A stretch of 64,000 bases of DNA from Bacteroidales bacterium (GCA_016783885.1 JADHVR010000002.1:3628-67627); one strand, 5' to 3'. Positions 3,545 through 19,649 are shown, numbered from the stretch's first letter. Notes: generated from the sequence alone by a model not told the origin. Numbers and translations are program-made.

Positions 3545-3604
3545 ACTATGCTTTCAATAATACAGACCCTTATACATCTAACGAGGTAAATTTGTACATT
3601 TTTC

Positions 3605-3716: not shown

Positions 3717-3725
3717 TAAATGTTT

Positions 3726-3766: not shown

Positions 3767-3861
3767 CTTTACTTTCCGCCATTGCAAGCAGTATCTTTAT
3801 TTACTGAAAAATAATCAGCAATTCTCAAATCAAATTTAATAATAATTTAAAATTTACAGTT

Positions 3862-5511
3862 ATGAAAAAGTCAGTTATTTTACTCGTTCTGGCAATTATA
3901 TCGGTAATTGCCGTTAATGCCCAACCACCACAAGCCTTCAAATACCAGGCTGTGGTGAGAGACAATTCAGGCGAAATCTTACAAAACCAGTCAGTAGGAA
4001 TCCGGATTAGCATCCATGATTCTACATCAGTTGGAACCATTATTTACCAGGAAACTTTCTCTGAAACTACAAACCAGTTCGGATTGGTAAATCTTGAAAT
4101 CGGAACCGGTACACCAACAATCGGAACTTTTACCGGTATCGACTGGAGCAGTAATTCTAAATTCATCGAAACAGAAATAGATCCGTTAGGTGGAATAGCT
4201 TATGTTTCACTGGGGACTTCTGAATTACAATCGGTTCCTTATGCCCTGTATTCAGACCGTTCAAAACATGCTGCATGGGAAAAAGCCGGTAATGAAATCT
4301 TTTATAACGATGGCTATGTTGGAATAGGAACCTCATTGCCCGGAACTAATCTTCATATTCAGAAAAGTAATAATGAAATTGTTCGTTTGCAATCAGAATC
4401 TTTGAATGGATGGATGTCATTTTATAATTCAAATGGATACATAGGATATTGGGGACCATATAATGGAGAAAATGATATTGATATTGGTACCGGCGCTTCC
4501 AATAACATCGGGAAATTACATCTGGTAACAAAAGCCACTCCACGAATGACGATTGATGAAACCGGCAATGTCGGTATTGGCACTACTACACCTAATGCAT
4601 ATCTACATGTGAATGACCGTATTCGTGTAGGTGAAGATCCAACTTATGGAAATGTGTTTGGCGAACTCATCCATGAGGGAGGCGGAAATGGATTTAAAAT
4701 TAATGCCAATGCAGGTGGCGGTTGGGCTGACATGCATTTTCAAACTGACGGAAATACCAGAATGTTTATAGAAAGCGGTGGTAGTGTGGGTATTGGAACT
4801 ACGAGTCCAGGACCAAGACTCACAGTAAAATCATCCGGTTATACCGGCGGCATGAATGTCCTTGCCGATGATGACGACCGTATTTTCAGGGTAAGACAAT
4901 CATCAAGTGGAGCCGGAGGGGTTTATGTATATGATAATGCCGACAATGCAACGATAGCTATTGCCGGAGATGGTAACAGCTATTTTAATTCAGGTAATGT
5001 TGGCATCGGTACATCTTCACCTTCCAGTAAGCTTGATGTACGCGGAAATATTACAATCCGAAGCGCAACTACCGGAAGTATAGTAATGGAATTAGGTACC
5101 GGCCTCGACTATGCAGAAGGATTTAATGTTTCAAATAGTAATACCATAGAACCAGGTACTATTCTTTGTATTGATCCTGAAAACCCCGGCAAATTAAAGA
5201 TCAGTGAGAACCCTTACGACAAAACTGTAGCAGGAATTGTTGCCGGTGCAAACGGACTGGGATCAGGAGTACGACTGGGTACACAGGAGTTTGATTGTGA
5301 TGTTGCCCTCGCCGGCAGGGTTTATTGCAACACCATTGCAACAAACGAAAATATTGAACCCGGTGACCTGTTAACTACTTCATCGGTTCCCGGCTATGCA
5401 ATGAAAGTTACTGATTTTGAAAATGCACACGGGGCTATTCTCGGCAAAGCAATGGAAAGCCTCGAAAAAGGTAAAAAAGGACAAATATTAGTTCTGGTAA
5501 CTTTACATTAA
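3862..5511 (+). CDS. Fibre-like secreted protein, paralog P1 (conserved N-module; tip class I, beta-barrel-like GDLL..S..PGYAMK C-terminus)
   Basis: 549 aa. Signal peptide ending VNA|QPPQ. N-module QPPQAFKYQAVVRDNSGEILQNQ...SVPYALYSDRSK (nt 3862-4266) is shared with 5 paralogs. Repeated (G)NVGIGT-x-x-P-x-x-x-L-H/D-V motifs. C-terminus EPGTILCIDPENPGKL...EPGDLLTTSSVPGYAMKV...GAILGKAMESLEKGKKGQILVLVTLH. Confidence 0.85.
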   Translation: MKKSVILLVLAIISVIAVNAQPPQAFKYQAVVRDNSGEILQNQSVGIRISIHDSTSVGTIIYQETFSETTNQFGLVNLEIGTGTPTIGTFTGIDWSSNSKFIETEIDPLGGIAYVSLGTSELQSVPYALYSDRSKHAAWEKAGNEIFYNDGYVGIGTSLPGTNLHIQKSNNEIVRLQSESLNGWMSFYNSNGYIGYWGPYNGENDIDIGTGASNNIGKLHLVTKATPRMTIDETGNVGIGTTTPNAYLHVNDRIRVGEDPTYGNVFGELIHEGGGNGFKINANAGGGWADMHFQTDGNTRMFIESGGSVGIGTTSPGPRLTVKSSGYTGGMNVLADDDDRIFRVRQSSSGAGGVYVYDNADNATIAIAGDGNSYFNSGNVGIGTSSPSSKLDVRGNITIRSATTGSIVMELGTGLDYAEGFNVSNSNTIEPGTILCIDPENPGKLKISENPYDKTVAGIVAGANGLGSGVRLGTQEFDCDVALAGRVYCNTIATNENIEPGDLLTTSSVPGYAMKVTDFENAHGAILGKAMESLEKGKKGQILVLVTLH

Positions 5512-5527
5512 TTTGGAGGGATTTGTT

Positions 5528-6985
5528 ATGAAAAAAGTACTTATATTAATATTCGGAGTTGCCATCCTTTTTGGGATTAGGAGTCCTGGCATTGCCCAGA
5601 TGGCAGATATCAATGAAACCTCAACTGTGGCTGATAACTGGATAAAGTTGATCATTGCTGAAACAGGAAGCTGGGGTATCCATAATACTGCTACTCCTGA
5701 ACCTATGGTTGAATTCAAACGGAATGAAAGGCTCCTCGGATACCTTTATCCGGTAAATCCTTCAGGTTATATTTTAATTTCCTTAAGAAAGGAACTGGCC
5801 CCGGTAAAGGCTTATTCTGCAACCGGCAGCCTCAATCCCCTTTCGGATGAAGGTATGGCCGACCTACTTAAAGTTTGTTTGGAACGGATTTTAGATACGA
5901 TAGAACAAAAGCTTGGGACAATAGAAATGGTAAATACTACTGATTTGGAAAAAATGGTGGAAATTAATTATAAACCGGCATGGAGTAATTTACTTAAAAG
6001 TAATCCTGTAATCAAAACTAAAAATAAAGAAAAAAGCAAGGATAACTACGAGGAAGGAGATATATTGCTTTCCTCTGACTGGCATCAAAGTCCGCCATAC
6101 AATGATGATTGCCCCTGGATGGATTGTCCAAATTCTAATGGACGGGCAATTGTAGGATGTGTGGCAACTGCCGGGGCCCAGATCATGCATTACTGGAACT
6201 GGCCGCCTTATGGTTCCGGTGCAGGTTATAGCGATACTTATGACTGGCCAAATATGCCTGATGCAGCTACAACATCCTCGCCGCAGGCTGAGATTGATGC
6301 ACTGGCAGAACTCAACCACGAAGTTGGAGTTGCTGTAGGCATGAGTTATGGCTGTAGTTCATCCGGGGCATATACTTACAACATGGTTGGAGTGTTTGAA
6401 AATAATTATCGCTACAGTACCAGTTGTGTTGTCAGGAACAGGCCAAGTTATTCGGCTGCAACCTGGTTTGCTATGATGCAAACCCAGTTCAACCAAAATC
6501 GTCCGGTTCAATACCGAATTCCCGGACATTCAATTGTAGGCGACGGATGGCAGATAATCGGAAGTAGTCTGAAAATGTATCACATGAACTACGGTTGGAT
6601 GGGAACAGGTGATGATGTATGGTATATCCTGGATGCGCTTCAGGGAGGAAATCCGAGTGAGGAATATATGTTAGAAGATATTGTTCCGGTTCAGGCAATG
6701 GACAACTGGGTTACAGGCACCTATTATACACCATCATTTCCGTACAGATATTTTGATAAAGATGCACTGGGAAGCGATGCTAACTTTGGCAGCGGTCATT
6801 TCCTCCAGTTTTTACCCGAAATTATACTTTCCGGTATTAGCCCAACCCTACCTGTAAGGTTTAACGGATCACCAAGCTATAATACAAGGTTATTTACCGC
6901 AGGGGATGTCTCAACGGGTATTCGTATTTATAATGGTGCAATAGAGATGACAAACTTTGGAAGTATCAAATTGTATGAAGAATAA
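5528..6985 (+). CDS. Peptidase C10 (streptopain/SpeB-PrtT-like) family cysteine protease with N-terminal pro-region
   Basis: Cys motif IVGCVATAGAQIMHYWNWP and His motif RIPGHSIVGDGWQ, followed by YHMNYGWMGTGDDVWY, match the C10 layout. ATG at 5528 is preceded by GGAGGG; the TTG at 5513 in the track is less likely. Signal peptide MKKVLILIFGVAILFG. Confidence 0.75.
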   Translation: MKKVLILIFGVAILFGIRSPGIAQMADINETSTVADNWIKLIIAETGSWGIHNTATPEPMVEFKRNERLLGYLYPVNPSGYILISLRKELAPVKAYSATGSLNPLSDEGMADLLKVCLERILDTIEQKLGTIEMVNTTDLEKMVEINYKPAWSNLLKSNPVIKTKNKEKSKDNYEEGDILLSSDWHQSPPYNDDCPWMDCPNSNGRAIVGCVATAGAQIMHYWNWPPYGSGAGYSDTYDWPNMPDAATTSSPQAEIDALAELNHEVGVAVGMSYGCSSSGAYTYNMVGVFENNYRYSTSCVVRNRPSYSAATWFAMMQTQFNQNRPVQYRIPGHSIVGDGWQIIGSSLKMYHMNYGWMGTGDDVWYILDALQGGNPSEEYMLEDIVPVQAMDNWVTGTYYTPSFPYRYFDKDALGSDANFGSGHFLQFLPEIILSGISPTLPVRFNGSPSYNTRLFTAGDVSTGIRIYNGAIEMTNFGSIKLYEE

Positions 6986-7001
6986 TAAATAGTTAATTAT
7001 C

Positions 7002-8912
7002 ATGAAAAATCTATGTTTAATTTTATTCCTGTTTTTTACTATATCTACAATTGTAGCACAACCACCACAAGCCTTTAAATACCAGGCAGTAGTACGGGAT
7101 AACACAGGTGAAATCTTACAAAACCAGGCAGTATGTGTTCGAATTAGTATCCATGATGTTATAGCAGGCGGCACCATTGTGTACCAGGAAACCTTTACTG
7201 AAACAACAAACCAGTTTGGTTTGGTAAATCTGGAGATCGGAAATGGAATCCCAACCATCGGGATTTTTGACGGAATCGACTGGAGTACCAATTCTAAATT
7301 TATCGAAACGGAAATTGACCCTGCCGGAGGAACAACGTTTGTCTCAATTGGCACTACAGAATTATTGGCGGTTCCTTATGCTCTGTATTCAAATCGCTCA
7401 AAAGATGCAGTCTGGGGAAAATACCTTAATAGTATTTATTATAATGATGGTAACGTAGGAATAGGAACCTCAAACCCTGTAAGGAAACTTCATATCAAAG
7501 GAACCACCGGTGAAGTTGTACGGTTCGAATCAGAAGGCGCTGACAACTGGAATTCAATCTATAACTCCAATGGATATATAGGCTATTTCGGAGCATATAA
7601 TGGAGATCATGATATAGATGTTGGTACCGGTGGTGGAAATAGCCTTGGGAAATTACATCTTGTAACCAAAGCAAGTCCCAGGCTAACCATTGATGATATT
7701 GGTAATGTAGGTATCGGCACAACAAATCCGGGAGCAATGTTAGAAGTAGCCGGCCAGGTGAAAATTACCGGGGGTGATCCTGCTAACCGAAAAGCGCTCA
7801 TTACTGATGCAACAGGCTTTGCTTCATGGCAATATTCCGCAATCAACGACCTTTCAGATGGTAGAACTGATGCAATGAGTGTTTTCCTTGGTTCAGGGTC
7901 AGGTATATTAGACGATGGAAACAACGGCAATACAGCTATTGGACAAGAGTGTTTAACAAACAATACGGAGGGCTTTAATAATACCGCAAGCGGATATCAG
8001 GCCTTGTATTCCAACACGGGTGGCGATGATAATATTGCAATCGGCAGTGCGGCTTTGTATAATAATACGACGGGCAGTTATAATACCGCAAGTGGAAGGA
8101 CAACCTTGTATGACAATACAACGGGCCATGATAATAACGCTATTGGTTATAGTGCCCTGGCAAACAATACAACTGGCAATTATAATACAGCGAACGGCAG
8201 TAATGCTTTAAATAATAATTCAACAGGCAGTGGCAATATTGCGATTGGATTTCAAGCGTTGTTATTTAATACAACAGGCGAGGTAAATACGGCTTGTGGG
8301 ATGTCTGCCATGCAATCCAATACAACGGGTAGCTGGAATACCGCGTATGGACATTCAGCATTTACAAATGGTGAGAGCCATTCAAATTCCACCGCTCTTG
8401 GATTTGATGCCGAACCTGAGGCATCCAATAAAATAATTCTCGGAAACTCCAGCGTATCCTGGATAGGAGGACATTCTTACTGGTATAATACTTCTGATGC
8501 CAGGGTAAAGACTAATATTAAGGAAGATGTGAAGGGCCTGGATTTTATCATGGAATTGCGCCCGGTTACATACTATTTTGATAAAGATAAAATGGATGAA
8601 TTGACAGGAACGGTTGATTCTACCCATTACCCTGAGAAATATGATGTTGAAAAAATAAAACAAAGTGGTTTTATGGCTCAGGAAGTAGAACAAGCGGCAC
8701 AAAACTCAGGTTATGATTTTAGCGGGATCAGCAAACCAAAAGGTGATGTAAAATATTACAGTTTGGCTTATGCTCAGTTTGTCGTGCCTTTGGTGAAAGC
8801 AGTACAGGAGCAGCAGGGAACAATTGAAACACTCAAGGAAATGAATAAGGAGCAACAAACTATGATTATAGAACTAAAATCACGAATTGAAAAATTGGAA
8901 ATGAACAAATAA
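7002..8912 (+). CDS. Fibre-like secreted protein, paralog P2 (conserved N-module; 17-residue NTA-x-G/NTTG repeat shaft; tip class II, peptidase S74 intramolecular-chaperone-type C-terminus)
   Basis: 636 aa. N-module nt 7002-7403. About 8 repeats of NTAxGxxALxxNTTGxx (nt ~7929-8365). C-terminal domain from TSDARVKTNIKEDVKGLDFIMELRPVTYYFDKDK ... SGFMAQEVEQAAQNSGYDFSGI ... YYSLAYAQFVVPLVKAVQEQQ plus a coiled coil (nt 8493-8909), as in endosialidase/tail-spike chaperone domains. Confidence 0.85.
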   Translation: MKNLCLILFLFFTISTIVAQPPQAFKYQAVVRDNTGEILQNQAVCVRISIHDVIAGGTIVYQETFTETTNQFGLVNLEIGNGIPTIGIFDGIDWSTNSKFIETEIDPAGGTTFVSIGTTELLAVPYALYSNRSKDAVWGKYLNSIYYNDGNVGIGTSNPVRKLHIKGTTGEVVRFESEGADNWNSIYNSNGYIGYFGAYNGDHDIDVGTGGGNSLGKLHLVTKASPRLTIDDIGNVGIGTTNPGAMLEVAGQVKITGGDPANRKALITDATGFASWQYSAINDLSDGRTDAMSVFLGSGSGILDDGNNGNTAIGQECLTNNTEGFNNTASGYQALYSNTGGDDNIAIGSAALYNNTTGSYNTASGRTTLYDNTTGHDNNAIGYSALANNTTGNYNTANGSNALNNNSTGSGNIAIGFQALLFNTTGEVNTACGMSAMQSNTTGSWNTAYGHSAFTNGESHSNSTALGFDAEPEASNKIILGNSSVSWIGGHSYWYNTSDARVKTNIKEDVKGLDFIMELRPVTYYFDKDKMDELTGTVDSTHYPEKYDVEKIKQSGFMAQEVEQAAQNSGYDFSGISKPKGDVKYYSLAYAQFVVPLVKAVQEQQGTIETLKEMNKEQQTMIIELKSRIEKLEMNK

Positions 8913-8926
8913 CTAACGCTACTAAC

Positions 8927-10690
8927 ATGAAAAAACTAACATTTACTTTTGTAATAGTAATTGCAGTGACAATAGCAGCCATTGCTCAACCCCCTCAAGC
9001 CTTCAAATACCAGGCAGTGGTCCGGGACAACTCAGGTGAAATTCTGCAAAACCAGGCAGTTGGAGTTCGTATAAGCATCCATGAAGGGTCTGCTATTGGT
9101 GAAATTTCATACCAGGAAACCTTTACTGAAACAACAAATCAATTTGGAATTGTAAACCTTGAAATCGGTAACGGGATACCAAGCTACGGCACATTTTCAA
9201 GCATCGACTGGAGCAACAACTTAAAATTCATCGAAACGGAAATTGATCCTCTAGGTGGAACAGCATATGTTTCAGTTGGAACTTCAGAATTATTAGCGGT
9301 TCCTTATGCCCTGTATTCTGATCGTTCAAAAGAATCAATTTGGGTAGAAGCCGATAGCAAAATCTATTATAAAGATGGTAATGTCGGGATTGGTACAAGC
9401 AGCCCGCAGGGAGAATTACATGTTAACAATCAGGGAGAATGGCTGGGAATTACATTCAACGGAACCGGCCTAAACGACCTTACCGTAGATCACAGCAACT
9501 ACAATGGATCCGGTACTACTCACTATATTGCCGAAGTAACGAATGCAGGCCCAAATCCAAACTTATTCAAATGGAGTAATGACAATGGTACTACATGGAC
9601 AGAGGACGTACAAATGGCAATTTCGGGAATTGATGTTGGATTTGAGGTTACAATAGGATTTGGGGCTGTGTATGGACACACTTATGGAGATCAATGGTTA
9701 TGGGAAGTTTCGTCAGGTTTTATGGATGGATTAATTGTGAAAGACGGAAATGTCGGTATTGGAACAACCCCTGTCAACGGAAAATTTTTCGTAAAGTCTG
9801 CAGGATATACCAATGGCATGTATGTATTAGCCGATGATAATGACCGGATTTTCAGGGTCAGGCAGCAGGCTGGTGGCGGCGGAGGAGTTTATGTATTTGA
9901 TGGTTCGGACAACCCAACTGCTGTGATGAATGGTGAAGGCGACAGCTGGTTTATAGGTGGTTATGTTGGGATAGGAACTACGAACCCGACGTACATGTTG
10001 GACGTAGGTGGGGGGCTTCGGGCAAGTGGCGGTGTATTAGTTGACGGGTGGTATAATTTTGGGATCGAGGTTCTCAATGCACATGATGAAGGTCTGTTTG
10101 TTTATGAATCCGATGATGATGGAGTCTATTCTAGTACTGAAGGTATTTTTTCGTATGGTTTTTACACACCAGATCGAACATACTCAGCCGGTGGCTATTT
10201 TCCTGCAAAGTCAGGGACATTTGCAAAGAATGATGGTCATGCTACATTAGAATCCGGAGACCTGGTTTGTATTTTAGGTGGATATGAAGAAAATGTGCTT
10301 GGAGAAGCAGGAGTTCATGTTGTTAATGTTACCAAAGCCAATGAAAAAAACTCACATTCAATATTCGGGGTTGTAGAAAGCCGGGTTTATATCCGGGAAA
10401 AAACAAAAGAGATGGAAGATGGTGAAACACTGGTAAGAAAAAGTTTTCGCTTTAAAGATGGAAATGTAATACCTGGCGATTATCTGTCTGTGATTATAGT
10501 TGGAATTGCTGATGTAAAAGTGGATAGAAAGGAAAATATTGAAGCCGGCCAGAAATTGACTGTATCGGAAATCGACGGAAAAGCCAGGCAAATCAAAAAT
10601 ACGGATAGCTGGACAGTTGGCATTCTTGGAAAAGCATTAGAAAATTCAGATGGCAGTGGAGCACTTAAAGTATTTGTGAATTGTAAATAA
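8927..10690 (+). CDS. Fibre-like secreted protein, paralog P3 (conserved N-module; tip class I variant)
   Basis: 587 aa. N-module nt 8927-9331. Shares the block GYTNGMYVLADDNDRIFRVRQ..GGVYVFDGSDNPTAV..GDSWF..GYVGIGTTNPTYMLDV with P1. C-terminus LESGDLVCILGG...GDYLSVIIVGIADVKV...NIEAGQKLTVSEIDGKARQ...VGILGKALENSDGSGALKVFVNCK parallels the P1 tip. Confidence 0.85.
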   Translation: MKKLTFTFVIVIAVTIAAIAQPPQAFKYQAVVRDNSGEILQNQAVGVRISIHEGSAIGEISYQETFTETTNQFGIVNLEIGNGIPSYGTFSSIDWSNNLKFIETEIDPLGGTAYVSVGTSELLAVPYALYSDRSKESIWVEADSKIYYKDGNVGIGTSSPQGELHVNNQGEWLGITFNGTGLNDLTVDHSNYNGSGTTHYIAEVTNAGPNPNLFKWSNDNGTTWTEDVQMAISGIDVGFEVTIGFGAVYGHTYGDQWLWEVSSGFMDGLIVKDGNVGIGTTPVNGKFFVKSAGYTNGMYVLADDNDRIFRVRQQAGGGGGVYVFDGSDNPTAVMNGEGDSWFIGGYVGIGTTNPTYMLDVGGGLRASGGVLVDGWYNFGIEVLNAHDEGLFVYESDDDGVYSSTEGIFSYGFYTPDRTYSAGGYFPAKSGTFAKNDGHATLESGDLVCILGGYEENVLGEAGVHVVNVTKANEKNSHSIFGVVESRVYIREKTKEMEDGETLVRKSFRFKDGNVIPGDYLSVIIVGIADVKVDRKENIEAGQKLTVSEIDGKARQIKNTDSWTVGILGKALENSDGSGALKVFVNCK

Positions 10691-10708
10691 CTCTAAACAC
10701 ATAAAAAT

Positions 10709-12082: not shown

Positions 12083-12115
12083 ACCCGGTGTTTCTCACCA
12101 CAATATCTTATTGAT

Positions 12116-14671
12116 ATGAAAAAGATAATTATTTCACTGCTGATATTAATCACTTCATCCGGGTTTTTACTCCTGGGGCAGAAATCTTCTTATGATATTT
12201 GGCTTAATTCTGAAACCGATGATTTTGAAAGCATCCGGCAAAACACTGAAGCTTATTTCGAAGGAAAATACAAGGGAAGGGGATCAGGGTATAAACAATG
12301 GAAACGTTGGGAATATTTGAACGAACGCAGGCTTTCTCCCGACGGAAAGGTCACTAACCACACATTATTGAATTGGTTAGCCTATCAGGAATACCTTGAT
12401 CAAAATCCTCAATACAAAAAGCCTGACCCAACAGATGTAGCCAACGGGTTCTGGCAATTTCTTGCACCTACGAGTTACATAAATGGTAATGGTTGGAATC
12501 CCGGTATTGGAAGGGTCAATTGTATTGCTTTTCATCCAACCGATCCATATACATTTTATATAGGCACTCCTTCGGGTGGAATATGGAAAACCTCTGAAGA
12601 AGGTGCTAACTGGACGAGCCTTTGCAATGGAATTCCCAGTATTGGTGTTTCCGGTATTGTTGTGAATCCTGCAAATCCGGATATAATTTATATCCTCACA
12701 GGCGATGGTGATGGAGGTAACACCTTTTCCATTGGAGTCTTAAAATCAATTGATGGCGGGATCTCATGGTCTGCAACAGGCCTTACGTTTGATAAAGAGG
12801 ACAAAAAAGTAGGCTATAAACTAAAAATGCACCCCACAAATTATAATATATTGTTTGCTACAACAACTGATGGTACTTATAAAACTACCGACGCAGGTGT
12901 AACATGGACTGAAGTCCATAACTGGTTGTTTTATGATATTGAATTCAAACCCGGAAATCCGTCTATCATGTATGGTTCTACAGGTTGGGGATTTTTCAGA
13001 TCAACTGATACAGGTGACACATGGACTGAAGTTACCGCTGGAGTTCCGACCAATGCATGGCGAATAGAGATCGGTGTATCACCTAATAACCCCACTTCCG
13101 TATATTTAGTTTGCGGGCCGGCTTTTGGAGATTATACTTTTGTTGGTCTTTACCGTTCATACGATAACGGGCAAAGCTTTTCTCTTATATCCGATTCGCC
13201 CAATATCCTTGGCTATGAAACTGACGGTAACGACAGTCTCCACCAGACAATGTATGACCTGGCCATAACAGTTTCAAGGACTGATTATTCAAAAATTATG
13301 GTAGGGGGGATCAATACTTGGGTATCAGATGATTATGGCAGTAACTGGACCATCACCTCCCACTGGTATGATGATAATAATCCAATCGGTTATACACATG
13401 CAGATATTCATGCATTGGAAATAAATCCCCTCAACAACCATTTGTATTGTGGTAGTGATGGCGGTATTTATAAGTCAACCGATTTCGGAAATAACTGGAC
13501 CGATCTGACTCCGGGTATTTCTAACACTCAATTTTATCGCATTGCCGGTTATGAGCCCGATGAATACCTGATTATTGGCGGCACCCAGGATAATGGCTCC
13601 AATAAATGGACAGGAGGGACATACTTCAGACACATTTTAGGTGCCGATGGTATGGATTGTATGATTGATCATACTAATCCCGATATTATGTATTACTGTG
13701 CCCAGAATGGCGGTCTTCATAAATCATACAACGGGGGTATTAATGCAACGAACATTATACCTGATACAGCTGCAATAGGTTCATGGATAACCCCCATCAT
13801 TATGAATCCTGTAGATCCCTTAATTATCTATGGTGGTTATAATGATGTTTATAAAAGCTATGACGGAGGAGAAAACTGGGTTAACCTTGGCGTAGATGGA
13901 CGTGAGGCAATGGCAATTGGCACGGATAATCCCGACAGGGTTTATGCATCGGACGGATATGATTTCAATAGCTCTCATGATGGTGGATATACCTGGTTCA
14001 ATTACAATGATAATGGCTTACCCGCTAATAGAATCAGTTTTATAGCTGTTAATCCGAATAATTCAAAGGATGTATTTGTAACAATTGGCGGATTTAACGA
14101 TGGTAAGAAAGTGTATCGTTCTACTAGTAATGGAGAATCCTTTACAAATATCACAGGCTCCCTGCCGAATGTCATCGTAAACTGCATAGCTTACGAAAAT
14201 ACAGGAGCGGACCCTGATGGTGCCGTTTATATCGGAACGGATGTAGGTGTATTCTATCGTAACAATAGCCTGGGAGATTGGATCCCTTACTCAAACTGGT
14301 TGCCCACTGTACCTGTTTTCGATCTGGAAATCAACGAAGCCAATGATTTGATTACTGCAGGAACATTTGGCCGGGGATTGTGGAGATCACCAACATATTC
14401 TCCTTGTTACGTTTCACGGACCTTAGGAGGAACAGGCCTCATCGGCTATAGTTATTACCAGGCAGAAGATTGGATTAATTCTACAAGGATCTATAACCAG
14501 GGAATTGGTCAGGAAGGTTATTATAAAGCAGGCAATACCATTCGGCTTCAGCCTGGTTTTCATGTGACCAACGGATCAAAATTCAAGGCTTTCCTGGGTC
14601 CGTGTGGGGCAGGTATTCCTACTGACCCAGGAACGAAAAATACAGAATCTGATAAGAAGAACATAGAGTGA
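12116..14671 (+). CDS. BNR/Asp-box repeat beta-propeller protein (sortilin/VPS10- or GH74-like architecture), secreted
   Basis: 851 aa with a signal peptide. Many Asp-box-like motifs: KTSEEGANWT, KSIDGGISWS, KTTDAGVTWT, RSTDTGDTWT, RSYDNGQSFS, SDDYGSNWT, KSTDFGNNWT, KSYDGGENWV, SSHDGGYTWF, RSTSNGESFT. C-terminal tail ...KAGNTIRLQPGFHVTNGSKFKAFLGPC resembles a C-terminal motif common in Bacteroidota surface proteins. Confidence 0.8.
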   Translation: MKKIIISLLILITSSGFLLLGQKSSYDIWLNSETDDFESIRQNTEAYFEGKYKGRGSGYKQWKRWEYLNERRLSPDGKVTNHTLLNWLAYQEYLDQNPQYKKPDPTDVANGFWQFLAPTSYINGNGWNPGIGRVNCIAFHPTDPYTFYIGTPSGGIWKTSEEGANWTSLCNGIPSIGVSGIVVNPANPDIIYILTGDGDGGNTFSIGVLKSIDGGISWSATGLTFDKEDKKVGYKLKMHPTNYNILFATTTDGTYKTTDAGVTWTEVHNWLFYDIEFKPGNPSIMYGSTGWGFFRSTDTGDTWTEVTAGVPTNAWRIEIGVSPNNPTSVYLVCGPAFGDYTFVGLYRSYDNGQSFSLISDSPNILGYETDGNDSLHQTMYDLAITVSRTDYSKIMVGGINTWVSDDYGSNWTITSHWYDDNNPIGYTHADIHALEINPLNNHLYCGSDGGIYKSTDFGNNWTDLTPGISNTQFYRIAGYEPDEYLIIGGTQDNGSNKWTGGTYFRHILGADGMDCMIDHTNPDIMYYCAQNGGLHKSYNGGINATNIIPDTAAIGSWITPIIMNPVDPLIIYGGYNDVYKSYDGGENWVNLGVDGREAMAIGTDNPDRVYASDGYDFNSSHDGGYTWFNYNDNGLPANRISFIAVNPNNSKDVFVTIGGFNDGKKVYRSTSNGESFTNITGSLPNVIVNCIAYENTGADPDGAVYIGTDVGVFYRNNSLGDWIPYSNWLPTVPVFDLEINEANDLITAGTFGRGLWRSPTYSPCYVSRTLGGTGLIGYSYYQAEDWINSTRIYNQGIGQEGYYKAGNTIRLQPGFHVTNGSKFKAFLGPCGAGIPTDPGTKNTESDKKNIE

Positions 14672-14703
14672 TCATTATTTAAAATTCAATAAAAAACAAA
14701 GGT

Positions 14704-16794
14704 ATGAAACGAAACATTTTAATTTTACTAATCGTCCTTTGTGGAACAATGGCGGTAATGGCACAGCCCCCCCAAGCCTTCAAATACCAGGCAGTGGTGC
14801 GCGATAACTCAGGTGAAATCCTGCAAAACCACGCAGTAGGTGTCCGAATCAGCATCCATGATGTAACAGCAGGAGGAACTATTGCTTACCAGGAAACTTT
14901 TTCTGAAACAACCAATAATTTCGGATTGGTAAACCTGGAAATCGGAACAGGCACACCAACCATCGGAACATTCACAGGAATTGACTGGAGCAGTAATTCT
15001 AAATTCATCGAAACAGAAATCGATCCGGAAGGTGGAATAGCATATGTTTCAATGGGGACATCGGAATTGCTATCAGTACCTTTTGCTTTGTACTCCGATC
15101 GTTCAAAGGATGTTGTATGGGAAAAGTCAGGAAATGAAATTTTCTATAATGATGGCAAAGTTGGTATTGGAACCTCTGCTCCGGCCGGTTCACTTGATGT
15201 CAGAGGCTCCGGTACTGATGAAGGAGTTGTGATTAATCTCGGTAATTCCGATCTTTCTCATAAATTAACATTATTTGGAGGCAAGGAGACCGATCCAAAC
15301 CCATTTCTGATGTGGAAGGATGGCGATCCCTTCAGGTTTGTTACAGATGCAGCTGGTTTTTCAGAAAAGATGAGAATAACATCGGACGGCAATGTGGGTA
15401 TAGGTACAACAACCCCTGGAGCCATCCTTGAAGTGGCAGGACATATCTGGCAAACAGGAACAGGGATGTCTGTTTTTTTAGGTGAAGGTGCCGGTACTCT
15501 TGATGACCTATCTGACAATGAAAATATTTTTATCGGCTCTAATGCAGGAAGCGCTAATACTTCCGGTTGGCGTAACACCGCAATTGGAGCCTCTTCAATT
15601 CGTTATACCACTACTGGAAATCGCAATACTGCAATCGGCGCTTATTCACTTTGCACTAACACAACCGGAAACTTCAATAGTGCAATCGGATATAAATCCT
15701 TGTTCTCGAACACAGCAGGAAATTCCAATACGGGGACGGGTTACTTATCACTTAATTCTAACACATTAGGCTCTGGTAATACAGCACATGGTTATTTAGC
15801 GCTTTATTCAAACACAATTGGTATCTCTAACGTAGCCATTGGAAACAGTGCACTATTTCATAATACCAATAGAAGTAATCTGGTTGCAGTTGGTGATTCG
15901 GCACTCTTTAATAATGGTATTGGAGTAGTTTATACTTACGAGGCAAATCAAAACACTGCTATTGGTTCCAAAGCTCTTTTTTCCAACACAAGAGGGGTTC
16001 ATCAAACAGCGAGTGGGTTTGAATCGCTTTACTACAATACTACTGGAGAGTATAACACTGCACACGGCTCTAATTCGCTTTATTACAATACTGCGGGAGA
16101 CTATAATACAGCCACCGGGTTTCAATCACTTTACTCGAATACAACAGGAGAGTATAACGCAGCACACGGTGGTTCTGCGCTCATATCTAATACGACAGGA
16201 GACTACAATACTGCCTGTGGTTTTTGGTCGCTTCCCTATTTCACAATTGGAGATTTTAACACCGCAGTTGGATATTTTGCATCGGTTTCTGGAGGGATTT
16301 CTACCAGTAATTCAACTGGAATTGGCTATAATGCACAACCCCAATACACCAACAGAATTATGCTTGGAAATACTGCTATTACTTGGATAGGTGGTCATTC
16401 TTCATGGTACAATACATCAGATACCAGAGTAAAGAATAATGTTAAGGAAGATGTGCAAGGCCTGGATTTTATTTTGAAACTACGCCCTGTAACATACCAT
16501 TTTGATAAAGATAAAATGGATCAATTAATGGGTATGGTGGATGCAAGTGATTATGCTGAAAAATATGATAAAGAAAAAATAAAACAAAGCGGATTCCTGG
16601 CACAGGAAGTAGAACAGGCAGCTATAGATTCAGGATATGATTTTAGTGGGGTATGTAAACCCACAGATCATATTAAATATTATTCTTTGGCCTATGCTGA
16701 GTTTGTAGTTCCCTTGGTAAAGGCAATGCAGGAACAGCAAGTTCTTATTGAAGAACTAAAATCACGCATTGAAAAATTGGAAAGGAATAAATAA
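14704..16794 (+). CDS. Fibre-like secreted protein, paralog P5 (conserved N-module; long 17-residue NTA-x-G/NTTG repeat shaft; tip class II, S74 chaperone-type)
   Basis: 696 aa. N-module nt 14704-15108. About 13 copies of NTAIGxxSLxxNTTGxx (nt ~15574-16285). C-terminal TSDTRVKNNVKEDVQGLDFILKLRPVTYHFDKDK...SGFLAQEVEQAAIDSGYDFSGV...YYSLAYAEFVVPLVKAMQEQQ (nt 16417-16791) is nearly the same as in P2. Confidence 0.85.
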   Translation: MKRNILILLIVLCGTMAVMAQPPQAFKYQAVVRDNSGEILQNHAVGVRISIHDVTAGGTIAYQETFSETTNNFGLVNLEIGTGTPTIGTFTGIDWSSNSKFIETEIDPEGGIAYVSMGTSELLSVPFALYSDRSKDVVWEKSGNEIFYNDGKVGIGTSAPAGSLDVRGSGTDEGVVINLGNSDLSHKLTLFGGKETDPNPFLMWKDGDPFRFVTDAAGFSEKMRITSDGNVGIGTTTPGAILEVAGHIWQTGTGMSVFLGEGAGTLDDLSDNENIFIGSNAGSANTSGWRNTAIGASSIRYTTTGNRNTAIGAYSLCTNTTGNFNSAIGYKSLFSNTAGNSNTGTGYLSLNSNTLGSGNTAHGYLALYSNTIGISNVAIGNSALFHNTNRSNLVAVGDSALFNNGIGVVYTYEANQNTAIGSKALFSNTRGVHQTASGFESLYYNTTGEYNTAHGSNSLYYNTAGDYNTATGFQSLYSNTTGEYNAAHGGSALISNTTGDYNTACGFWSLPYFTIGDFNTAVGYFASVSGGISTSNSTGIGYNAQPQYTNRIMLGNTAITWIGGHSSWYNTSDTRVKNNVKEDVQGLDFILKLRPVTYHFDKDKMDQLMGMVDASDYAEKYDKEKIKQSGFLAQEVEQAAIDSGYDFSGVCKPTDHIKYYSLAYAEFVVPLVKAMQEQQVLIEELKSRIEKLERNK

Positions 16795-16823
16795 ATTGAA
16801 TTAGAAATATAAAAAATAATAAT

Positions 16824-18644
16824 ATGAAAACATTATCAGTTTTAATAGCTGTTTTAAGCTGCTCAATTCTTTTGAATGCACAACCACCACAAGCCTTCAA
16901 ATACCAGGCTGTAGTCAGGGATGTTGCAGGAGAAGTCATTTCAAATCAATCTGTGGATATAAGAATCAGTATTCACAATGAAACACCTGGAGGCACAATC
17001 ATCTACCAGGAAACTTTTTCAGGTACAACCAACCAATTTGGCCTCATTTCTTTAAACATTGGTTTAGGAACACCGGTAATAGGCACATTTGGTAGTATTA
17101 ACTGGAGTGCTGATTCAAAATTCATAAAAGTAGAAATTTATAATTCTGCAGGAGGCGGCTATGTTGCATTAGGAACGTCTGAATTATTTTCTGTTCCCTA
17201 TGCATTGTATTCCGACCGGTCGGCTGATGGATTTTGGGAATTGAACAACTCCGATATTTACTACAATTCCGGTAGTGTTGCAATTGGTTCAACCTATCCC
17301 ATTGCAAAGTTACATGTTGATGGAGGGTCAGGAGCAGGAATTTATGGTTTTAGTTCCAATAGTTATGGAATTGTTGGTAAAAGTTGGGCAGACAATTACC
17401 CTGGTGTTCAGGGAGAAGCACTGTCCGCAAACAGTTATGGAATATATAGTCAAAATCAATATGGTGGCACAGCTTTTCGTTCATGGAGTGATGGTGGGTT
17501 GGCCGGCCATTTTGAAGGTGATGTTTATATGGAAGATAATTTAGGTGTTGGGACATCTAGCCCAAGCTATCCGTTACATGTTAAAAGCAGCCATGATGAC
17601 TGGTTGGTAGGAATCCATAACCAGAGTTGGTCGTATAGTGCCAATGGACTTGTAACTCGTTCCGAAGGTGGAGATCCATTTCTTGCCCAAAGCTCCTATG
17701 GAGATCTTCTTATTGTAAAGAATAATGGTAGGGTAGGCATTGGAACCTCTACTCCGGATGCCGTGCTGCATGTTGATGATCATATTCGAGTAGGAGAAGA
17801 TCCTTCCTATTCTACAGTGTATGGTGAACTTTTTCACTACGGTGGAGGAACAGGATTTAAAATTAACGCACACGCAGGAGGAGGAAGTTGGGCTGATATG
17901 CATTTGCAGACGAATGGATCCACGAAAGTGTTTATTGAGAGCAATGGACAGGTTGGGATTGGAACGGATAGCCCTTATAATCGCCTGCAAGTTGTGGCTT
18001 CCGGATCTGAAAACGGATTCCAGAGTTATAGCCCGAGTGGAACTGCTGTTTATGGATTATCTGGTTCCAGTTATGGAGTATTTGGCCAAAGTACAAGCTA
18101 TTATGCAGGTTATTTTTCAGGACCTGTACATGTAACCGGCAACCTTTCAAAAGGAAGCGGCTCGTTTGTTATTGACCATCCGCTTGATCCTGAAAATAAG
18201 CTGCTCCGCCATAATTTTGTGGAATCTCCGGAGAACCTGTTGATTTATCGGGGAAAAGCTGAACTAGATGAAAAAGGGGAAGCTATGGTAGAGTTATCTG
18301 ATTACTTTAAAGCCCTTACCAAAGAAGATGAAGCCTCTATTCATCTCACTCCTGTTGGCAGACCATTTTTAACCGGGGCTGAATGGAACAGCGATTTTTC
18401 AGCAATTATCATTTATGGAGAAACAAACCGGGCAGTTTTCTGGGAAGTTTTGGCGGATCGTGATGATCCGGTAATTCACGAACTTGGCCGTCCTGTTGAA
18501 GAAGAAAAGGGAGGAAAAAATACACTTTGCGAAAAGGGTAAATTGCTTTATCCCGAAGCTTATGGTTATCCTGAATCAGCAGGAAGAGATTATGACGAAA
18601 TGATAAAAATGAAAGAGCAAATAAACAGAAATACAACTAAGTAA
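16824..18644 (+). CDS. Fibre-like secreted protein, paralog P6 (more diverged N-module; tip class IV, FVIDHPLDPENK...VESPE domain)
   Basis: 606 aa. N-module nt 16824-17222 (QPPQAFKYQAVVRDVAGEVISNQ). Shares RVGEDPSYSTVYGELFHYGGGTGFKINAHAGGGSWADMHLQTNGSTKVFIESNGQVGIGT with P1. C-terminus GSFVIDHPLDPENKLLRHNFVESPENLLIYRGKAELDEKGEAMVELSDYFKAL. Confidence 0.85.
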   Translation: MKTLSVLIAVLSCSILLNAQPPQAFKYQAVVRDVAGEVISNQSVDIRISIHNETPGGTIIYQETFSGTTNQFGLISLNIGLGTPVIGTFGSINWSADSKFIKVEIYNSAGGGYVALGTSELFSVPYALYSDRSADGFWELNNSDIYYNSGSVAIGSTYPIAKLHVDGGSGAGIYGFSSNSYGIVGKSWADNYPGVQGEALSANSYGIYSQNQYGGTAFRSWSDGGLAGHFEGDVYMEDNLGVGTSSPSYPLHVKSSHDDWLVGIHNQSWSYSANGLVTRSEGGDPFLAQSSYGDLLIVKNNGRVGIGTSTPDAVLHVDDHIRVGEDPSYSTVYGELFHYGGGTGFKINAHAGGGSWADMHLQTNGSTKVFIESNGQVGIGTDSPYNRLQVVASGSENGFQSYSPSGTAVYGLSGSSYGVFGQSTSYYAGYFSGPVHVTGNLSKGSGSFVIDHPLDPENKLLRHNFVESPENLLIYRGKAELDEKGEAMVELSDYFKALTKEDEASIHLTPVGRPFLTGAEWNSDFSAIIIYGETNRAVFWEVLADRDDPVIHELGRPVEEEKGGKNTLCEKGKLLYPEAYGYPESAGRDYDEMIKMKEQINRNTTK

Positions 18645-19644: not shown

Positions 19645-19649
19645 GATTA

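What the first reader, a model, noticed from the sequence alone, without database searches (positions are those of the whole stretch)
3862..18644. Eight-gene operon of six mosaic fibre-like paralogs: one constant N-terminal module, four interchangeable C-terminal tip types
Six ORFs (3862, 7002, 8927, 10709, 14704, 16824) begin with a signal peptide cleaved before QPPQ. This fits the known Bacteroidota preference for Gln at +1 of signal-peptidase-I substrates. All six then share an almost identical ~134-aa module (QPPQAFKYQAVVRDNSGEILQNQ...NQFGLVNLEIG...IDWS.NSKFIETEIDP.GG..YVS.GTSEL.SVPYALYSDRSK). After that they diverge into shafts built from NVGIGT-type units and end in four different tip classes. 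The classes are GDLL..S..PGYAMK barrel-like (P1, P3), peptidase-S74 intramolecular-chaperone type (P2, P5), WPDYVF/HLPDMPSA plus coiled coil (P4), and FVIDHPLDPENK/VESPE (P6). Internal blocks are also shuffled: P1 shares one block with P2 and P4, another with P3, and another with P6. Intergenic gaps are 14-33 nt, so the genes look co-transcribed. A constant N-terminus with a variable distal tip is the logic of phage tail fibres (attachment end versus receptor end). Here, however, there are no phage structural, lysis or integration genes. This looks like a cellular, regulated repertoire of interchangeable surface or extracellular fibres whose anchoring partner and targets are unknown.
Basis: partly seen in the sequence, partly recalled or inferred. 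Interest (0 to 1): 0.8.

Follow-up and report, generated by a model that had tools for sequence, protein, structure and literature searches.

The report
Bacteroidales operon of mosaic adhesive fibres
An uncultured Bacteroidales bacterium carries a regulator-flanked nine-gene operon for six secreted, tail-fibre-like proteins with one shared base domain and different tips; they belong to the "mosaic adhesive trimer" (MAT) fibre superfamily described in Bdellovibrio in 2024, and a conserved neighbour gene suggests how such fibres are mounted on the cell surface.

Summary
Six co-directional paralogs (3862-18644) share a signal peptide, Gln+1 and a 114-aa N-module, then diverge into shuffled shafts and different tips. 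The kind is already known. The N-module matches NCBIfam Bdello_MAT_N, below its cutoff. The shafts match only solved Bdellovibrio MAT fibres in the PDB. Two tips are S74 self-cleaving chaperones. Caulton et al. 2024 already list Bacteroidota MAT proteins in a supplementary table. There is no phage or injection-system context, and the N-module is an Ig-like beta-sandwich, not an enzyme.

New here:
- The N-module family has at least 26,800 clusters, and every named relative seen is from Bacteroidota.
- The unit is nine genes. It ends in ORF9 (18748-19644) and a terminator-like hairpin, and follows a conserved hybrid kinase/AraC regulator.
- ORF9's ~50-aa N-terminal domain recurs next to fibre genes across the phylum, usually as a ~155-aa protein with a type IX secretion (T9SS) sorting domain. 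This makes it a candidate for the unidentified fibre anchor or export adaptor.
- P1-type tips are always followed by a C10 peptidase, and P4-type tips by a BNR/sortilin-like protein.

Trimer formation, surface display, ligands and partner binding are inferred, not shown.

The parts
593..3544 (+). Hybrid sensor kinase / response regulator / AraC-type regulator with a TPR sensor; candidate regulator of the operon
   Evidence: Pfam hits TPR, HisKA, HATPase_c, Response_reg and HTH_18. Close homologues (split into two ORFs in L025) lie directly upstream of fibre arrays in 9 related loci: L006/L022, L009, L010, L015, L016, L023, L024, L025, L026.
3545..3861 (+). 317-nt upstream intergenic region (presumed promoter/operator), with heptamer repeat arrays at 3603-3631 and 3652-3711
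   Evidence: Sequence read and tandem repeats. No inverted repeats flank it, so there is no sign of an invertible promoter. Function untested.
3862..5511 (+). P1: MAT-like fibre, 549 aa. N-module at 3922-4263; P1-type tip in aa ~396-549.
   Evidence: Bdello_MAT_N hit at 5.8e-9. The shaft hits PDB 8ond (Bd2133) at 5.9e-8 and 8ojn at 7e-6, and phage tail-fibre PHROGs. In 5 of 5 related loci a fibre with this tip type is followed by a C10 peptidase.
5528..6985 (+). Secreted C10 (streptopain-family) cysteine peptidase, gene-paired with the P1-type fibre
   Evidence: Pfam Peptidase_C10 at 4.8e-40. The signal peptide has Gln+1. The same P1-type fibre then C10 pair occurs in L013, L016, L019, L024 and L031.
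7002..8912 (+). P2: MAT-like fibre, 636 aa. N-module at 7059-7400; NTxxG-repeat beta-helix; S74 intramolecular chaperone at 8493-8708 followed by a coiled coil.
   Evidence: Peptidase_S74 at 8.3e-11. The SDARVK motif starts at aa 498. PHROG tail spike phrog_4636 at 2e-62. PDB hits 8ond and 8ojn.
8927..10690 (+). P3: MAT-like fibre, 587 aa. N-module at 8987-9328; P3-type tip.
   Evidence: Bdello_MAT_N at 9.9e-7. The tip shares its last 64 aa with the P1 tip. 16 of 213 family members carry this tip type. No PHROG hit.
10709..12082 (+). P4: MAT-like fibre, 457 aa. N-module at 10766-11107; tip WPDYVF...HLPDMPSA plus a C-terminal coiled coil.
   Evidence: Bdello_MAT_N at 4.5e-9. PDB 8ond at 9.7e-10. 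The tip profile has no PDB relative beyond coiled-coil noise. In 3 of 3 related loci a fibre with this tip type is followed by the BNR protein.
12116..14671 (+). Secreted BNR/Sortilin-Vps10-like beta-propeller protein with a GCX_COOH C-terminal domain, gene-paired with the P4-type fibre
   Evidence: Pfam Sortilin-Vps10 at 9.5e-23. NCBIfam F510_1955 glycosylhydrolase-like at 5e-40 (below cutoff) and GCX_COOH at 3.6e-12. Orthologs follow P4-type fibres in L006, L015 and L023.
14704..16794 (+). P5: MAT-like fibre, 696 aa. N-module at 14764-15105; long NTxxG-repeat beta-helix; S74 chaperone at 16417-16629.
   Evidence: Peptidase_S74 at 1e-8. The SDTRVK motif starts at aa 572. phrog_4636 at 8e-67.
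16824..18644 (+). P6: MAT-like fibre, 606 aa. N-module at 16881-17222; tip FVIDHPLDPENK...VESPE.
   Evidence: Bdello_MAT_N at 1.9e-9. 24 of 213 family members carry this tip type. The tip region hits phage PHROGs of unknown function, 17490 and 28536. No PDB sequence relative.
18748..19644 (+). ORF9: conserved terminal gene, 298 aa. Signal peptide with Gln+1; ~50-aa 'partner domain' at 18808-18960; ~225-aa C-terminal domain at 18961-19641.
   Evidence: No Pfam or PDB relative. At least 1161 homologues, all named 'hypothetical'. It ends fibre arrays in L006, L015, L016, L019, L023 and L024. The partner domain recurs next to fibre genes in 36 of 48 complete loci, and 4 of 4 partner-first look-ups found a fibre gene alongside.
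19737..19758 (+). Terminator-like hairpin (9-bp stem, 6 G-C pairs, T-run) that closes the transcription unit
   Evidence: It is the longest-stemmed, most G+C-rich such site in 3400-20000; the total number of terminator-like sites there is at chance level.

Best explanation
The locus is a chromosomal operon (about 3862-19644, + strand) of an uncultured Bacteroidales bacterium. It encodes six members of the mosaic adhesive trimer (MAT) fibre superfamily, two secreted enzymes and one conserved accessory protein.

Shown by sequence or model:
- Each fibre has a Sec signal peptide with Gln at +1.
- Each has a 114-aa Ig-like beta-sandwich N-module homologous to the Bdellovibrio MAT N-domain.
- Each shaft is built of beta-helical units with VGIGT..P...L capping loops. 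These are homologous to solved MAT shafts and to phage tail fibres.
- Each ends in one of several tips: two S74 self-cleaving chaperone tips, related P1- and P3-type tips, a P4-type tip with a coiled coil, and a P6-type tip.

Inferred by analogy with characterised MAT fibres:
- The proteins form homotrimers displayed on the cell surface.
- The constant N-module faces the cell, and the variable tips bind different ligands, probably glycans or surfaces of other cells or particles.
- One cell can therefore carry a repertoire of adhesins.

Inferred from conserved gene neighbourhoods:
- The N-module's cell-side partner is the ~50-aa domain at the start of ORF9.
- In most Bacteroidota this domain is a ~155-aa protein ending in a type A T9SS sorting domain, encoded immediately next to the fibre gene.
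- The fibres themselves have no outer-membrane export signal. They would be exported with, or tethered to, this T9SS cargo.
- In this lineage the partner domain is instead fused to a 225-aa C-terminal domain that other secreted enzymes of the same genome also carry.

Two further inferences:
- Tip types come as cassettes with enzymes. The P1-type tip pairs with a C10 peptidase and the P4-type tip with a BNR protein, which suggests the enzyme acts at the site the fibre binds or matures the fibre.
- Expression is probably controlled by the conserved upstream hybrid kinase/AraC regulator.
For: Family identity:
- All six proteins hit NF053851 Bdello_MAT_N and no other NCBIfam model.
- 17 of 17 diverse N-modules without their signal peptide also hit it, best E 2.1e-10.
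- The only significant PDB sequence relatives of the four shafts searched (P1, P2, P4, P6) are Bdellovibrio MAT structures 8ond, 8ojn, 8ol4 and 8oml.
- P2 and P5 carry S74 with the SDxxxK motif.
- The MAT definition (signal peptide, ~130-aa beta-rich N-domain, capping loops, S74 or non-S74 tips) and the FCB-group examples come from PMC10769870.

N-module properties:
- AF2 gives pLDDT 88.6 and seven strands, with no significant fold match.
- There are 26,812 clusters at 50% identity, and in the 150 best hits listed the domain nearly always sits at residues ~20-134.
- All 80 best genomic loci are from Bacteroidota.

Not phage.

Operon grammar, and the pairing of tips with enzymes.

Partner gene:
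- An adjacent partner-domain ORF occurs in 36 of 48 complete loci, with one non-adjacent hit in 1.13 Mb.
- 12 of 12 small partners exceed the TIGR04183 cutoff.
- At least 4292 clusters exist, and the top 120 all carry PF18962.
- All 4 partner-first look-ups have an N-module gene 2-16 nt downstream, including cultured Vicingus serpentipes.
- The six fibres have no T9SS sorting domain.

The Gln+1 rule for Bacteroidota signal peptides is from PMC5837995.
Against: - The Bdello_MAT_N scores (25-38 bits) are below the curated cutoff of 60. This is a sister family, not the curated Bdellovibrio subfamily.
- Trimer formation, surface exposure, ligands and transcription as one unit were not tested.
- The fibres are about half the length of Bdellovibrio MATs.
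- 12 of 48 complete loci have no adjacent partner gene.
- ORF9 in this window lacks a T9SS sorting domain, and its route to the surface is unknown.
- ORF9's dockerin-like Ca-loop motifs are seen only by eye; Pfam Dockerin_1 is not detected even at E<=1.
- The ORF9 model is only moderately confident (pLDDT 65).
- Gene adjacency does not show physical interaction.
- The organism's lifestyle is unknown, so a role in predation cannot be assumed.
Confidence: 0.7

Rival explanations
1. The fibres are a scaffold for enzymes rather than adhesins for cells. They would form a cellulosome-like surface apparatus in which tips or bases hold the C10 peptidase, the BNR protein and other secreted enzymes, tethered through cohesin/dockerin-like modules.
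For: - Strict gene pairing of P1-type tips with C10 and of P4-type tips with BNR.
- ORF9's C-terminal domain also ends a GH57 enzyme, a C1 peptidase and a Big_2/cohesin protein of the same genome.
- Cohesin domains above the Pfam cutoff lie just upstream, one on a protein with a T9SS sorting domain.
Against: - No dockerin is detected in ORF9 by Pfam.
- Most family members elsewhere are single fibres with no enzyme neighbour.
- Characterised MAT tips bind glycans (PMC10769870).
- No sequence similarity links the enzymes to the fibres.
- This reading overlaps with the best explanation rather than excluding it.
Confidence: 0.2
2. The fibres are released or matrix components (biofilm, sheath or vesicle-associated fibres) that are not anchored by the neighbouring gene. 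On this reading the partner-domain gene is simply a co-regulated small T9SS surface protein.
For: - The fibres have only a Sec signal.
- 12 of 48 complete loci lack an adjacent partner.
- ORF9 here has no T9SS sorting domain.
- Many relatives have collagen-like shafts typical of matrix proteins.
Against: - The partner domain is almost never found away from a fibre gene: 1 non-adjacent hit in 1.13 Mb.
- The pairing holds when the search starts from the partner.
- Such tight coupling across orders is unusual for unrelated genes.
- A constant N-domain is hard to explain without a common binding partner.
Confidence: 0.12
3. The locus is a decayed prophage, tailocin or contractile-injection-system fibre cassette.
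For: The shafts and S74 tips hit phage tail-fibre and tail-spike PHROGs strongly: phrog_4636 at 8e-67 and phrog_9942 at 1e-17. The P6 tip hits phage families of unknown function.
Against: - No capsid, tail, baseplate, sheath, lysis or integrase genes occur in 64 kb plus 10 kb upstream.
- All nine products have signal peptides, which virion proteins lack.
- The N-module has no PHROG hit and no hit in 50,697 phage genomes.
- It occurs in only 3 IMG/VR loci, against more than 575 genomic loci.
- The same operon frame is conserved in many MAGs next to the same regulator.
Confidence: 0.02

Closest known systems
Bdellovibrio bacteriovorus MAT (mosaic adhesive trimer) fibres, Caulton et al. 2024, PMC10769870 (e.g. 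Bd2133, Bd3182, Bd2439)
   Same: - A signal peptide followed at once by a conserved beta-rich N-domain of ~115-130 aa, homologous by HMM.
- A shaft with the same capping-loop units, homologous to PDB 8ond and 8ojn.
- Tips that are either S74 with SDxxxK or diverse non-S74 domains, with evidence of tip and block swapping.
- A multi-gene repertoire within one genome.
- The authors already list FCB-group members.
   Different: - A sister family: NF053851 scores fall below the cutoff.
- About half the length (457-696 aa against ~1000).
- Six genes in one operon, with interleaved enzymes and a dedicated regulator, rather than largely separate loci (going by the locus tags in the paper's gene table).
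- A conserved adjacent partner gene linked to T9SS, which Bdellovibrionota are not known to have (prior knowledge, not tested here).
- The tip types seen here (P1/P3, P4, P6) are not among the solved MAT tips.
- The host's lifestyle is unknown and may not be predatory.
Phage tail fibres and tailspikes with a C-terminal S74 intramolecular chaperone (K1F endosialidase, T5 L-shaped tail fibre pb1)
   Same: A trimeric beta-helical shaft, a self-cleaving S74 chaperone in P2 and P5, and the logic of a constant attachment end with a variable receptor end. PHROG hits are strong.
   Different: The N-terminal attachment domain is cellular, not viral. The proteins are Sec-exported. There is no virion context.
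T9SS-secreted surface adhesins of Bacteroidota (SprB, RemA and other type A sorting-domain cargo)
   Same: The same phylum and probably the same surface. The small partner proteins next to most family members are bona fide type A sorting-domain proteins.
   Different: The fibres themselves carry no sorting domain. If they use T9SS at all, it would be indirectly through the partner, which is not an established mode for T9SS.
Trimeric autotransporter adhesins (YadA family)
   Same: Modular trimeric fibres made of head, stalk and anchor, with repertoires of variable heads.
   Different: The anchor there is a C-terminal beta-barrel and the variable head is N-terminal. Here the polarity is reversed and no YadA anchor is detected.
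Cohesin-dockerin (cellulosome-type) surface assemblies
   Same: Cohesin domains, one on a T9SS-anchored protein, lie just upstream. ORF9 and several enzymes share a C-terminal domain with two DxNxDGxIxxxD-like loops.
   Different: The dockerin is not confirmed by Pfam. No interaction has been tested. This is a lead, not a membership claim.

Membership tests
MAT superfamily (Caulton et al. 2024) | N-terminal Sec signal peptide | tested here: met
   All six start with a basic residue, a hydrophobic core and a small-residue cleavage site followed by Gln. This was judged by inspection; no signal-peptide predictor was available.
MAT superfamily (Caulton et al. 2024) | Conserved beta-rich N-domain of ~130 aa immediately after the signal peptide, homologous to the Bdellovibrio one | tested here: met
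   NF053851 is the only NCBIfam hit for all six proteins (1.9e-9 to 1.6e-5). It is also hit by 17 of 17 diverse N-modules without their signal peptide (best 2.1e-10). The AF2 model is a 7-strand beta-sandwich.
NCBIfam NF053851 Bdello_MAT_N (curated subfamily) | Score at or above the curated cutoff of 60 bits | tested here: not met
   Scores are 24.8-37.6 bits. This is a sister family, not the curated Bdellovibrio subfamily.
MAT superfamily (Caulton et al. 2024) | Fibre shaft with repeated capping-loop units | tested here: met
   VGIGT..P...L units occur in every paralog. phmmer hits go to PDB 8ond (down to 9.7e-10), 8ojn, 8ol4 and 8oml.
MAT superfamily (Caulton et al. 2024) | Variable C-terminal tip: S74 with SDxxxK, or a non-S74 domain | tested here: met
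   P2 and P5 carry Peptidase_S74 with SDARVK and SDTRVK. P1, P3, P4 and P6 carry three other tip classes.
MAT superfamily (Caulton et al. 2024) | Homotrimer formation and display on the cell surface | not testable with these tools
   No multimer prediction was available, and surface display needs experiments.
Phage tail fibre / prophage or tailocin module | Location among virion structural, lysis or integration genes | tested here: not met
   Pfam scans of the 30 largest ORFs across the window, plus the precomputed Pfam annotation of 10 kb upstream, show none.
Phage tail fibre / prophage or tailocin module | N-terminal attachment domain shared with phage proteins | tested here: not met
   No PHROG covers residues 21-135. 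tblastn against 50,697 phage genomes finds nothing. Only 3 IMG/VR loci carry it. The BFVD fold search gives no hit at E<=0.001.
T9SS cargo | C-terminal sorting domain (type A TIGR04183/PF18962, or type B) | tested here: not met
   No hit in any of the six fibres or in ORF9. The feature is met by the small partner proteins of other genomes, 12 of 12.
Trimeric autotransporter adhesins | C-terminal YadA-type membrane anchor | tested here: not met
   No such Pfam hit.
Dockerin-bearing proteins (for ORF9) | Dockerin_1 domain detectable by profile | tested here: not met
   Pfam at E<=1 on 9 family members returns nothing. Only two DxNxDGxIxxxD-like loops are seen by eye.

The most novel reading that the evidence does not exclude
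The ~50-aa domain at the start of ORF9 is the so-far unidentified cell-side receptor and export adaptor of the MAT N-terminal domain. In most Bacteroidota this domain is a ~155-aa protein with a T9SS type A sorting domain, encoded right beside the fibre gene. On this reading, trimeric fibres that carry no outer-membrane signal ride out with, and are tethered by, a T9SS cargo. That would be a piggy-back mode of type IX secretion. Specific tips would also come 'armed' with a dedicated protease or BNR enzyme. MAT-like fibres would then be a phylum-wide, T9SS-dependent adhesin system with tens of thousands of variants, not a speciality of predators.
Probability: 0.4. Interest if true: 0.75.

Novelty: new variant of a known kind. 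Interest (0 to 1): 0.6.

Why it matters
MAT fibres were described in 2024 as the prey-recognition repertoire of Bdellovibrio. What holds their constant N-domain on the cell is explicitly left open in that paper.

This locus and its relatives add three points:
- The same architecture is very common in Bacteroidota, with at least 26,800 N-module clusters at 50% identity.
- In some Bacteroidales it is organised as a regulator-flanked operon with variable fibre content.
- It is genetically coupled to a small T9SS cargo protein that is currently annotated only by its sorting domain.

If that protein is the anchor or export adaptor, several things follow:
- It would answer the open question of the anchor for this phylum.
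- It would add an indirect cargo class to type IX secretion.
- It would give a simple two-gene module (partner plus fibre) that can be tested in cultured species.

The pairing of tips with enzymes suggests that adhesion and local degradation are linked.

Tried and rejected
- Prophage, tailocin or CIS origin: rejected.
- N-module as an enzyme: rejected. It is an Ig-like sandwich with no significant PDB or BFVD match. The weak top hits to phage tail-tip and minor-tail Ig-like domains (E 1e-3 to 8e-3, TM <=0.56) are not significant.
- Fibres as direct T9SS cargo: rejected, because they have no sorting domain.
- Invertible promoter or phase variation: no inverted repeats around the promoter region.
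- Recent duplication or gene conversion as the cause of the shared N-terminus: DNA identity is only 59-77%. Within-array N-module identity is raised here (mean 0.77) and in L066 (0.90) against 0.57 between genomes. It is not raised in L006, L015, L019 or L067, so homogenisation is not a general rule.
- Identifying the P1/P3, P4 and P6 tips through profile searches of PDB sequences: nothing significant.
- ORF9 through Pfam, PDB sequences and fold search: nothing.
- Similarity between the enzymes and the fibres: none.
- A first genome scan with the 54-sequence alignment failed for lack of a conserved stretch and was repeated with 17 sequences.
- The variant in L002 is a 155-bp insertion within P2, partly duplicating the flanking sequence, in a 5.8x-coverage contig. 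It is probably an assembly artefact.

Full report
**1. Observation**

Region 3862-18644 holds six + strand ORFs: P1 3862-5511, P2 7002-8912, P3 8927-10690, P4 10709-12082, P5 14704-16794 and P6 16824-18644. Two unrelated ORFs are interleaved with them.

All six begin with a signal peptide followed by QPPQAFKYQAVVRD. About 70 of the first ~160 alignment columns are invariant. Over 140 residues the N-modules are 66-87% identical to P1. The N-terminal shared blocks are only 59-77% identical in DNA. 'Almost identical' therefore overstates old, constrained paralogs.

Internal blocks are shared in a mosaic pattern:
- P1:162-254 ~ P2:173-253 ~ P4:259-338.
- P1:309-364 ~ P3:276-331.
- P1:231-328 ~ P6:298-396.
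- P2:475-636 ~ P5:549-696.

Intergenic gaps are 14-33 nt.

**2. Context**

The window is ordinary Bacteroidota chromosome. It carries pheS, thymidine kinase, a cyclophilin, an M28 peptidase, T9SS cargo with Por_Secre_tail, a TonB-type receptor and several two-component systems.

No phage, lysis, integrase or contractile-injection genes occur in the window or in the 10 kb upstream recovered from metagenome contigs that carry the identical locus. The closest genomes are uncultured Bacteroidales MAGs.

**3. What the six proteins are**

- Against NCBIfam, each of the six hits only NF053851 'Bdello_MAT_N', the mosaic adhesive trimer family (E 1.9e-9 to 1.6e-5, 25-38 bits, cutoff 60).
- The match does not depend on the signal peptide. 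17 of 17 diverse N-modules trimmed to the mature domain hit the same model, best 2.1e-10.
- The only significant PDB sequence relatives of the four shafts searched (P1, P2, P4, P6) are the Bdellovibrio MAT structures 8ond (Bd2133), 8ojn/8onb/8onc, 8ol4/8onf and 8oml. They align over the '...GNVGIGTTxPxxxLHV' capping-loop units.
- P2 and P5 end in Peptidase_S74 with the catalytic SDxxxK motif, as SDARVK at aa 498 and SDTRVK at aa 572.

Caulton et al. 2024 (PMC10769870) define MAT proteins by four features: a signal peptide, a conserved ~130-aa beta-rich N-domain, a trimeric shaft with capping loops, and S74 or non-S74 tips. Their Supplementary Table S3 already lists FCB-group examples: a Saprospiraceae bacterium, Salinivirga, Kordia, Dokdonia and Patiriisocius.

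The kind of system is therefore known. This locus is a Bacteroidales representative of a sister family to the curated Bdellovibrio subfamily.

**4. The N-module**

AF2 with a 54-sequence alignment gives a confident model (pLDDT 88.6, pTM 0.78) of a seven-strand beta-sandwich.

Foldseek finds nothing significant:
- PDB: best E 7.9e-3, TM <=0.52.
- Predicted viral structures: best E 1.4e-3, TM 0.55, to Ig-like domains of phage minor tail proteins.

It is not an enzyme. This agrees with the published statement that the MAT N-domain has no structural homologue.

A profile of 17 N-modules finds 26,812 clusters at 50% identity (23,663 at E<=1e-10). In the 150 best hits listed, the domain nearly always sits at residues ~20-134. 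One protein, P0121, has six tandem copies.

The domain is cellular:
- No PHROG family covers it, although the shafts and S74 tips hit phage tail-fibre and tail-spike families strongly.
- It has no match in 50,697 phage genomes.
- It occurs in only 3 loci in IMG/VR, against more than 575 confirmed loci in species-representative genomes. The best 80 of those are all from Bacteroidota.

**5. Tips**

Among them:

| Tip type | Members |
|---|---|
| S74 | ~35 |
| P6-type | 24 |
| P3-type | 16 |
| P4-type | 11 |
| P1-type | 9 |

- The P1 and P3 tips are related only over their last ~64 residues (hhalign 93%, E 3.5e-7).
- Profiles of the P1/P3, P4 and P6 tips have no PDB sequence relatives.
- Part of the P6 tip hits two phage families of unknown function.

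**6. The operon is larger and is conserved**

A ninth gene, ORF9 (18748-19644), follows P6 after 103 nt. The only strong terminator-like hairpin lies after it, at 19737-19758.

Related Bacteroidales MAGs repeat the same frame:
- A close homologue of the upstream hybrid kinase/receiver/AraC gene (593-3544; above 1000 bits in eight of the nine loci, split into two ORFs in L025) comes first.
- A co-directional array of 2-5 N-module genes follows.
- An ORF9 homologue ends the array.

The fibre content differs between genomes:

| Locus | Gene order |
|---|---|
| L016 | P1-type, C10, unknown tip, P6-type, ORF9 |
| L015 | P4-type, BNR, three P6-type, ORF9 |
| L006 | two P3-type, P4-type, BNR, unknown tip, ORF9 |

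This is what cassette exchange within a fixed frame would give.

Two couplings are strict in the data at hand:
- Every P1-type fibre is followed by a C10 peptidase (L013, L016, L019, L024, L031 and the window).
- Every P4-type fibre is followed by the BNR/sortilin-like protein (L006, L015, L023 and the window).

All nine products have signal peptides with Gln at +1, the Bacteroidetes Q-rule (PMC5837995).

**7. ORF9 and the partner gene**

ORF9 has no Pfam or PDB relative. It has at least 1161 homologues, all named 'hypothetical'. Its AF2 model is moderate (pLDDT 65) and has no fold match. It has two parts.

The C-terminal part:
- About 225 residues also end other secreted proteins of this genome: GH57 at 29446-32880, a C1 peptidase/lectin at 33155-35185, and the Big_2/cohesin protein ending at 434.
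- It contains two DxNxDGxIxxxD-like loops, but Pfam does not call a dockerin.

The N-terminal part, about 50 residues (SVSPEVVASAGDYFEGTNASLSWTLGEIATETYSNGNIILTQGFQQP):
- It recurs in ORFs directly beside N-module genes in Flavobacteriales, Crocinitomicaceae, Vicingaceae, Chitinophagales, Prolixibacteraceae and Bacteroidales.
- 36 of 48 loci with both flanks available have one within 700 bp of the array. It lies upstream in 34 cases, downstream in 11 and inside the array in 3.
- Only one non-adjacent hit occurs in 1.13 Mb.

Most of these ORFs encode ~155-190-aa proteins made of a signal peptide, the partner domain and a T9SS type A sorting domain:
- 12 of 12 exceed the TIGR04183 cutoff.
- The family has at least 4292 clusters at 90% identity. 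It is annotated only as 'T9SS type A sorting domain-containing protein'.
- Larger partner-domain proteins also end in Por_Secre_tail (L033, L071).

The association holds in the reverse direction. Four look-ups that started from partner proteins all found an N-module gene 2-16 nt downstream. One of these is in the cultured Vicingus serpentipes. Its fibre is N-module plus collagen plus C1q, and C1q is, from prior knowledge, a TNF-like fold like two solved MAT tips.

**8. Most likely mechanism**

Shown:
- Domain architecture.
- Homology to MAT fibres.
- Cellular context.
- Conserved gene neighbourhoods.

Inferred by analogy with Bdellovibrio MATs: the proteins trimerise and S74 is cleaved off in P2 and P5. 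The fibres then project from the cell, with the N-module proximal and the tip distal, and act as a repertoire of adhesins.

Inferred from synteny:
- The fibres have only a Sec signal and no sorting domain. The partner domain is therefore the best candidate for the element that binds the N-module and brings it to the surface through T9SS, or holds it there.
- In the window's lineage the partner domain is instead fused to a C-terminal domain shared with other secreted enzymes.
- Two cohesin-bearing proteins lie just upstream, one with a T9SS sorting domain. A cohesin/dockerin-type tether is possible but unsupported by profile evidence.
- The C10 and BNR enzymes may act where their cognate fibre binds, or may process it.
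- The upstream kinase/AraC gene probably controls the unit.

I could not test binding.

**9. Novelty and verdict**

It is a MAT-superfamily repertoire, and Bacteroidota members were already noted in 2024.

To my knowledge the following are new. The checks were full-text searches, text look-ups in two of the papers found, and a reading of the 2024 paper.
- The size of the Bacteroidota family.
- The operon frame with its regulator.
- The pairs of tip and enzyme.
- The near-obligate pairing with a small T9SS cargo protein.

I rate it a new variant of a known kind, with interest 0.6. Confidence is about 0.9 that these are MAT-like fibre adhesins, and about 0.4 that the partner domain is their anchor or export adaptor.

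Noticed in passing
window 29446-32880 (-), 33155-35185 (-), 15-434 (+): Three other secreted proteins end in the same ~225-aa C-terminal domain as ORF9: GH57 with an Ig-like domain, a papain-family C1 peptidase with a lectin domain, and a Big_2/cohesin protein. None of the three with a Pfam scan of the whole protein (ORF9, the GH57 protein, the C1 peptidase) has a detectable T9SS sorting domain. This may be an undescribed C-terminal sorting or tethering domain. It has two DxNxDGxIxxxD-like loops, but Pfam calls no dockerin.
   Followed up: partly
P0121 (916 aa) and P0122 (548 aa): One family member has six tandem copies of the N-module and another has two. The domain can therefore also be used as a repeat, not only as a single base.
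   Followed up: partly
window 3603-3631 and 3652-3711: The 317-nt region between the regulator gene and P1 holds two arrays of 7-nt repeats, TCTCCAG x4 and ACTGCCG-like x8.6 (with 14/21-nt super-periods). They could be operator sites for the AraC-type regulator or could be slippage-prone. Neither was tested.
   Followed up: no
L002 14113-14214 (= window ~7920-7974, inside P2): One low-coverage metagenome contig (5.8x) carries a 155-bp insertion within P2, partly duplicating the flanking sequence, that breaks the gene. Three other contigs are 100% identical to the window over 15.5 kb. It is probably an assembly artefact, though repeat-length variation is possible.
   Followed up: partly
window 18645-18747: The 103-nt gap before ORF9 is much longer than the other gaps and is AT-rich, with TTTG...TAxxTTT-like elements. 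ORF9 may have its own promoter in addition to read-through from the array.
   Followed up: no
L084 2686-4545 and 6989-10465; L087 1234-4846: Single partner-plus-fibre modules in Vicingus serpentipes and in a JGI metagenome contig are also flanked by sensor kinases and response regulators (TPR-HisKA_2; Reg_prop/Y_Y_Y; LytTR; GerE). Adjacency to two-component systems may be general for this family.
   Followed up: no
L086 5467-6998: The fibre gene next to the partner is split into two ORFs (76 and 435 aa), with the N-module divided between them. This is a frameshift or a sequencing error.
   Followed up: no
window 47589-56889: This stretch holds three adjacent genes: a TonB-dependent-receptor-like gene (CarboxypepD_reg plus Plug), a 1478-aa ORF with no Pfam hit (51341-55777), and a weak PorV-like gene (55825-56889). 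It is an unexplored outer-membrane gene trio downstream of a Reg_prop/LytTR two-component pair.
   Followed up: no
window N-modules vs L006, L015, L019, L066, L067: N-modules within this array (mean identity 0.77) and within L066 (0.90) are more alike than N-modules of different genomes (0.57). Arrays in L006, L015, L019 and L067 are not. Homogenisation of the base domain is therefore array-specific.
   Followed up: partly
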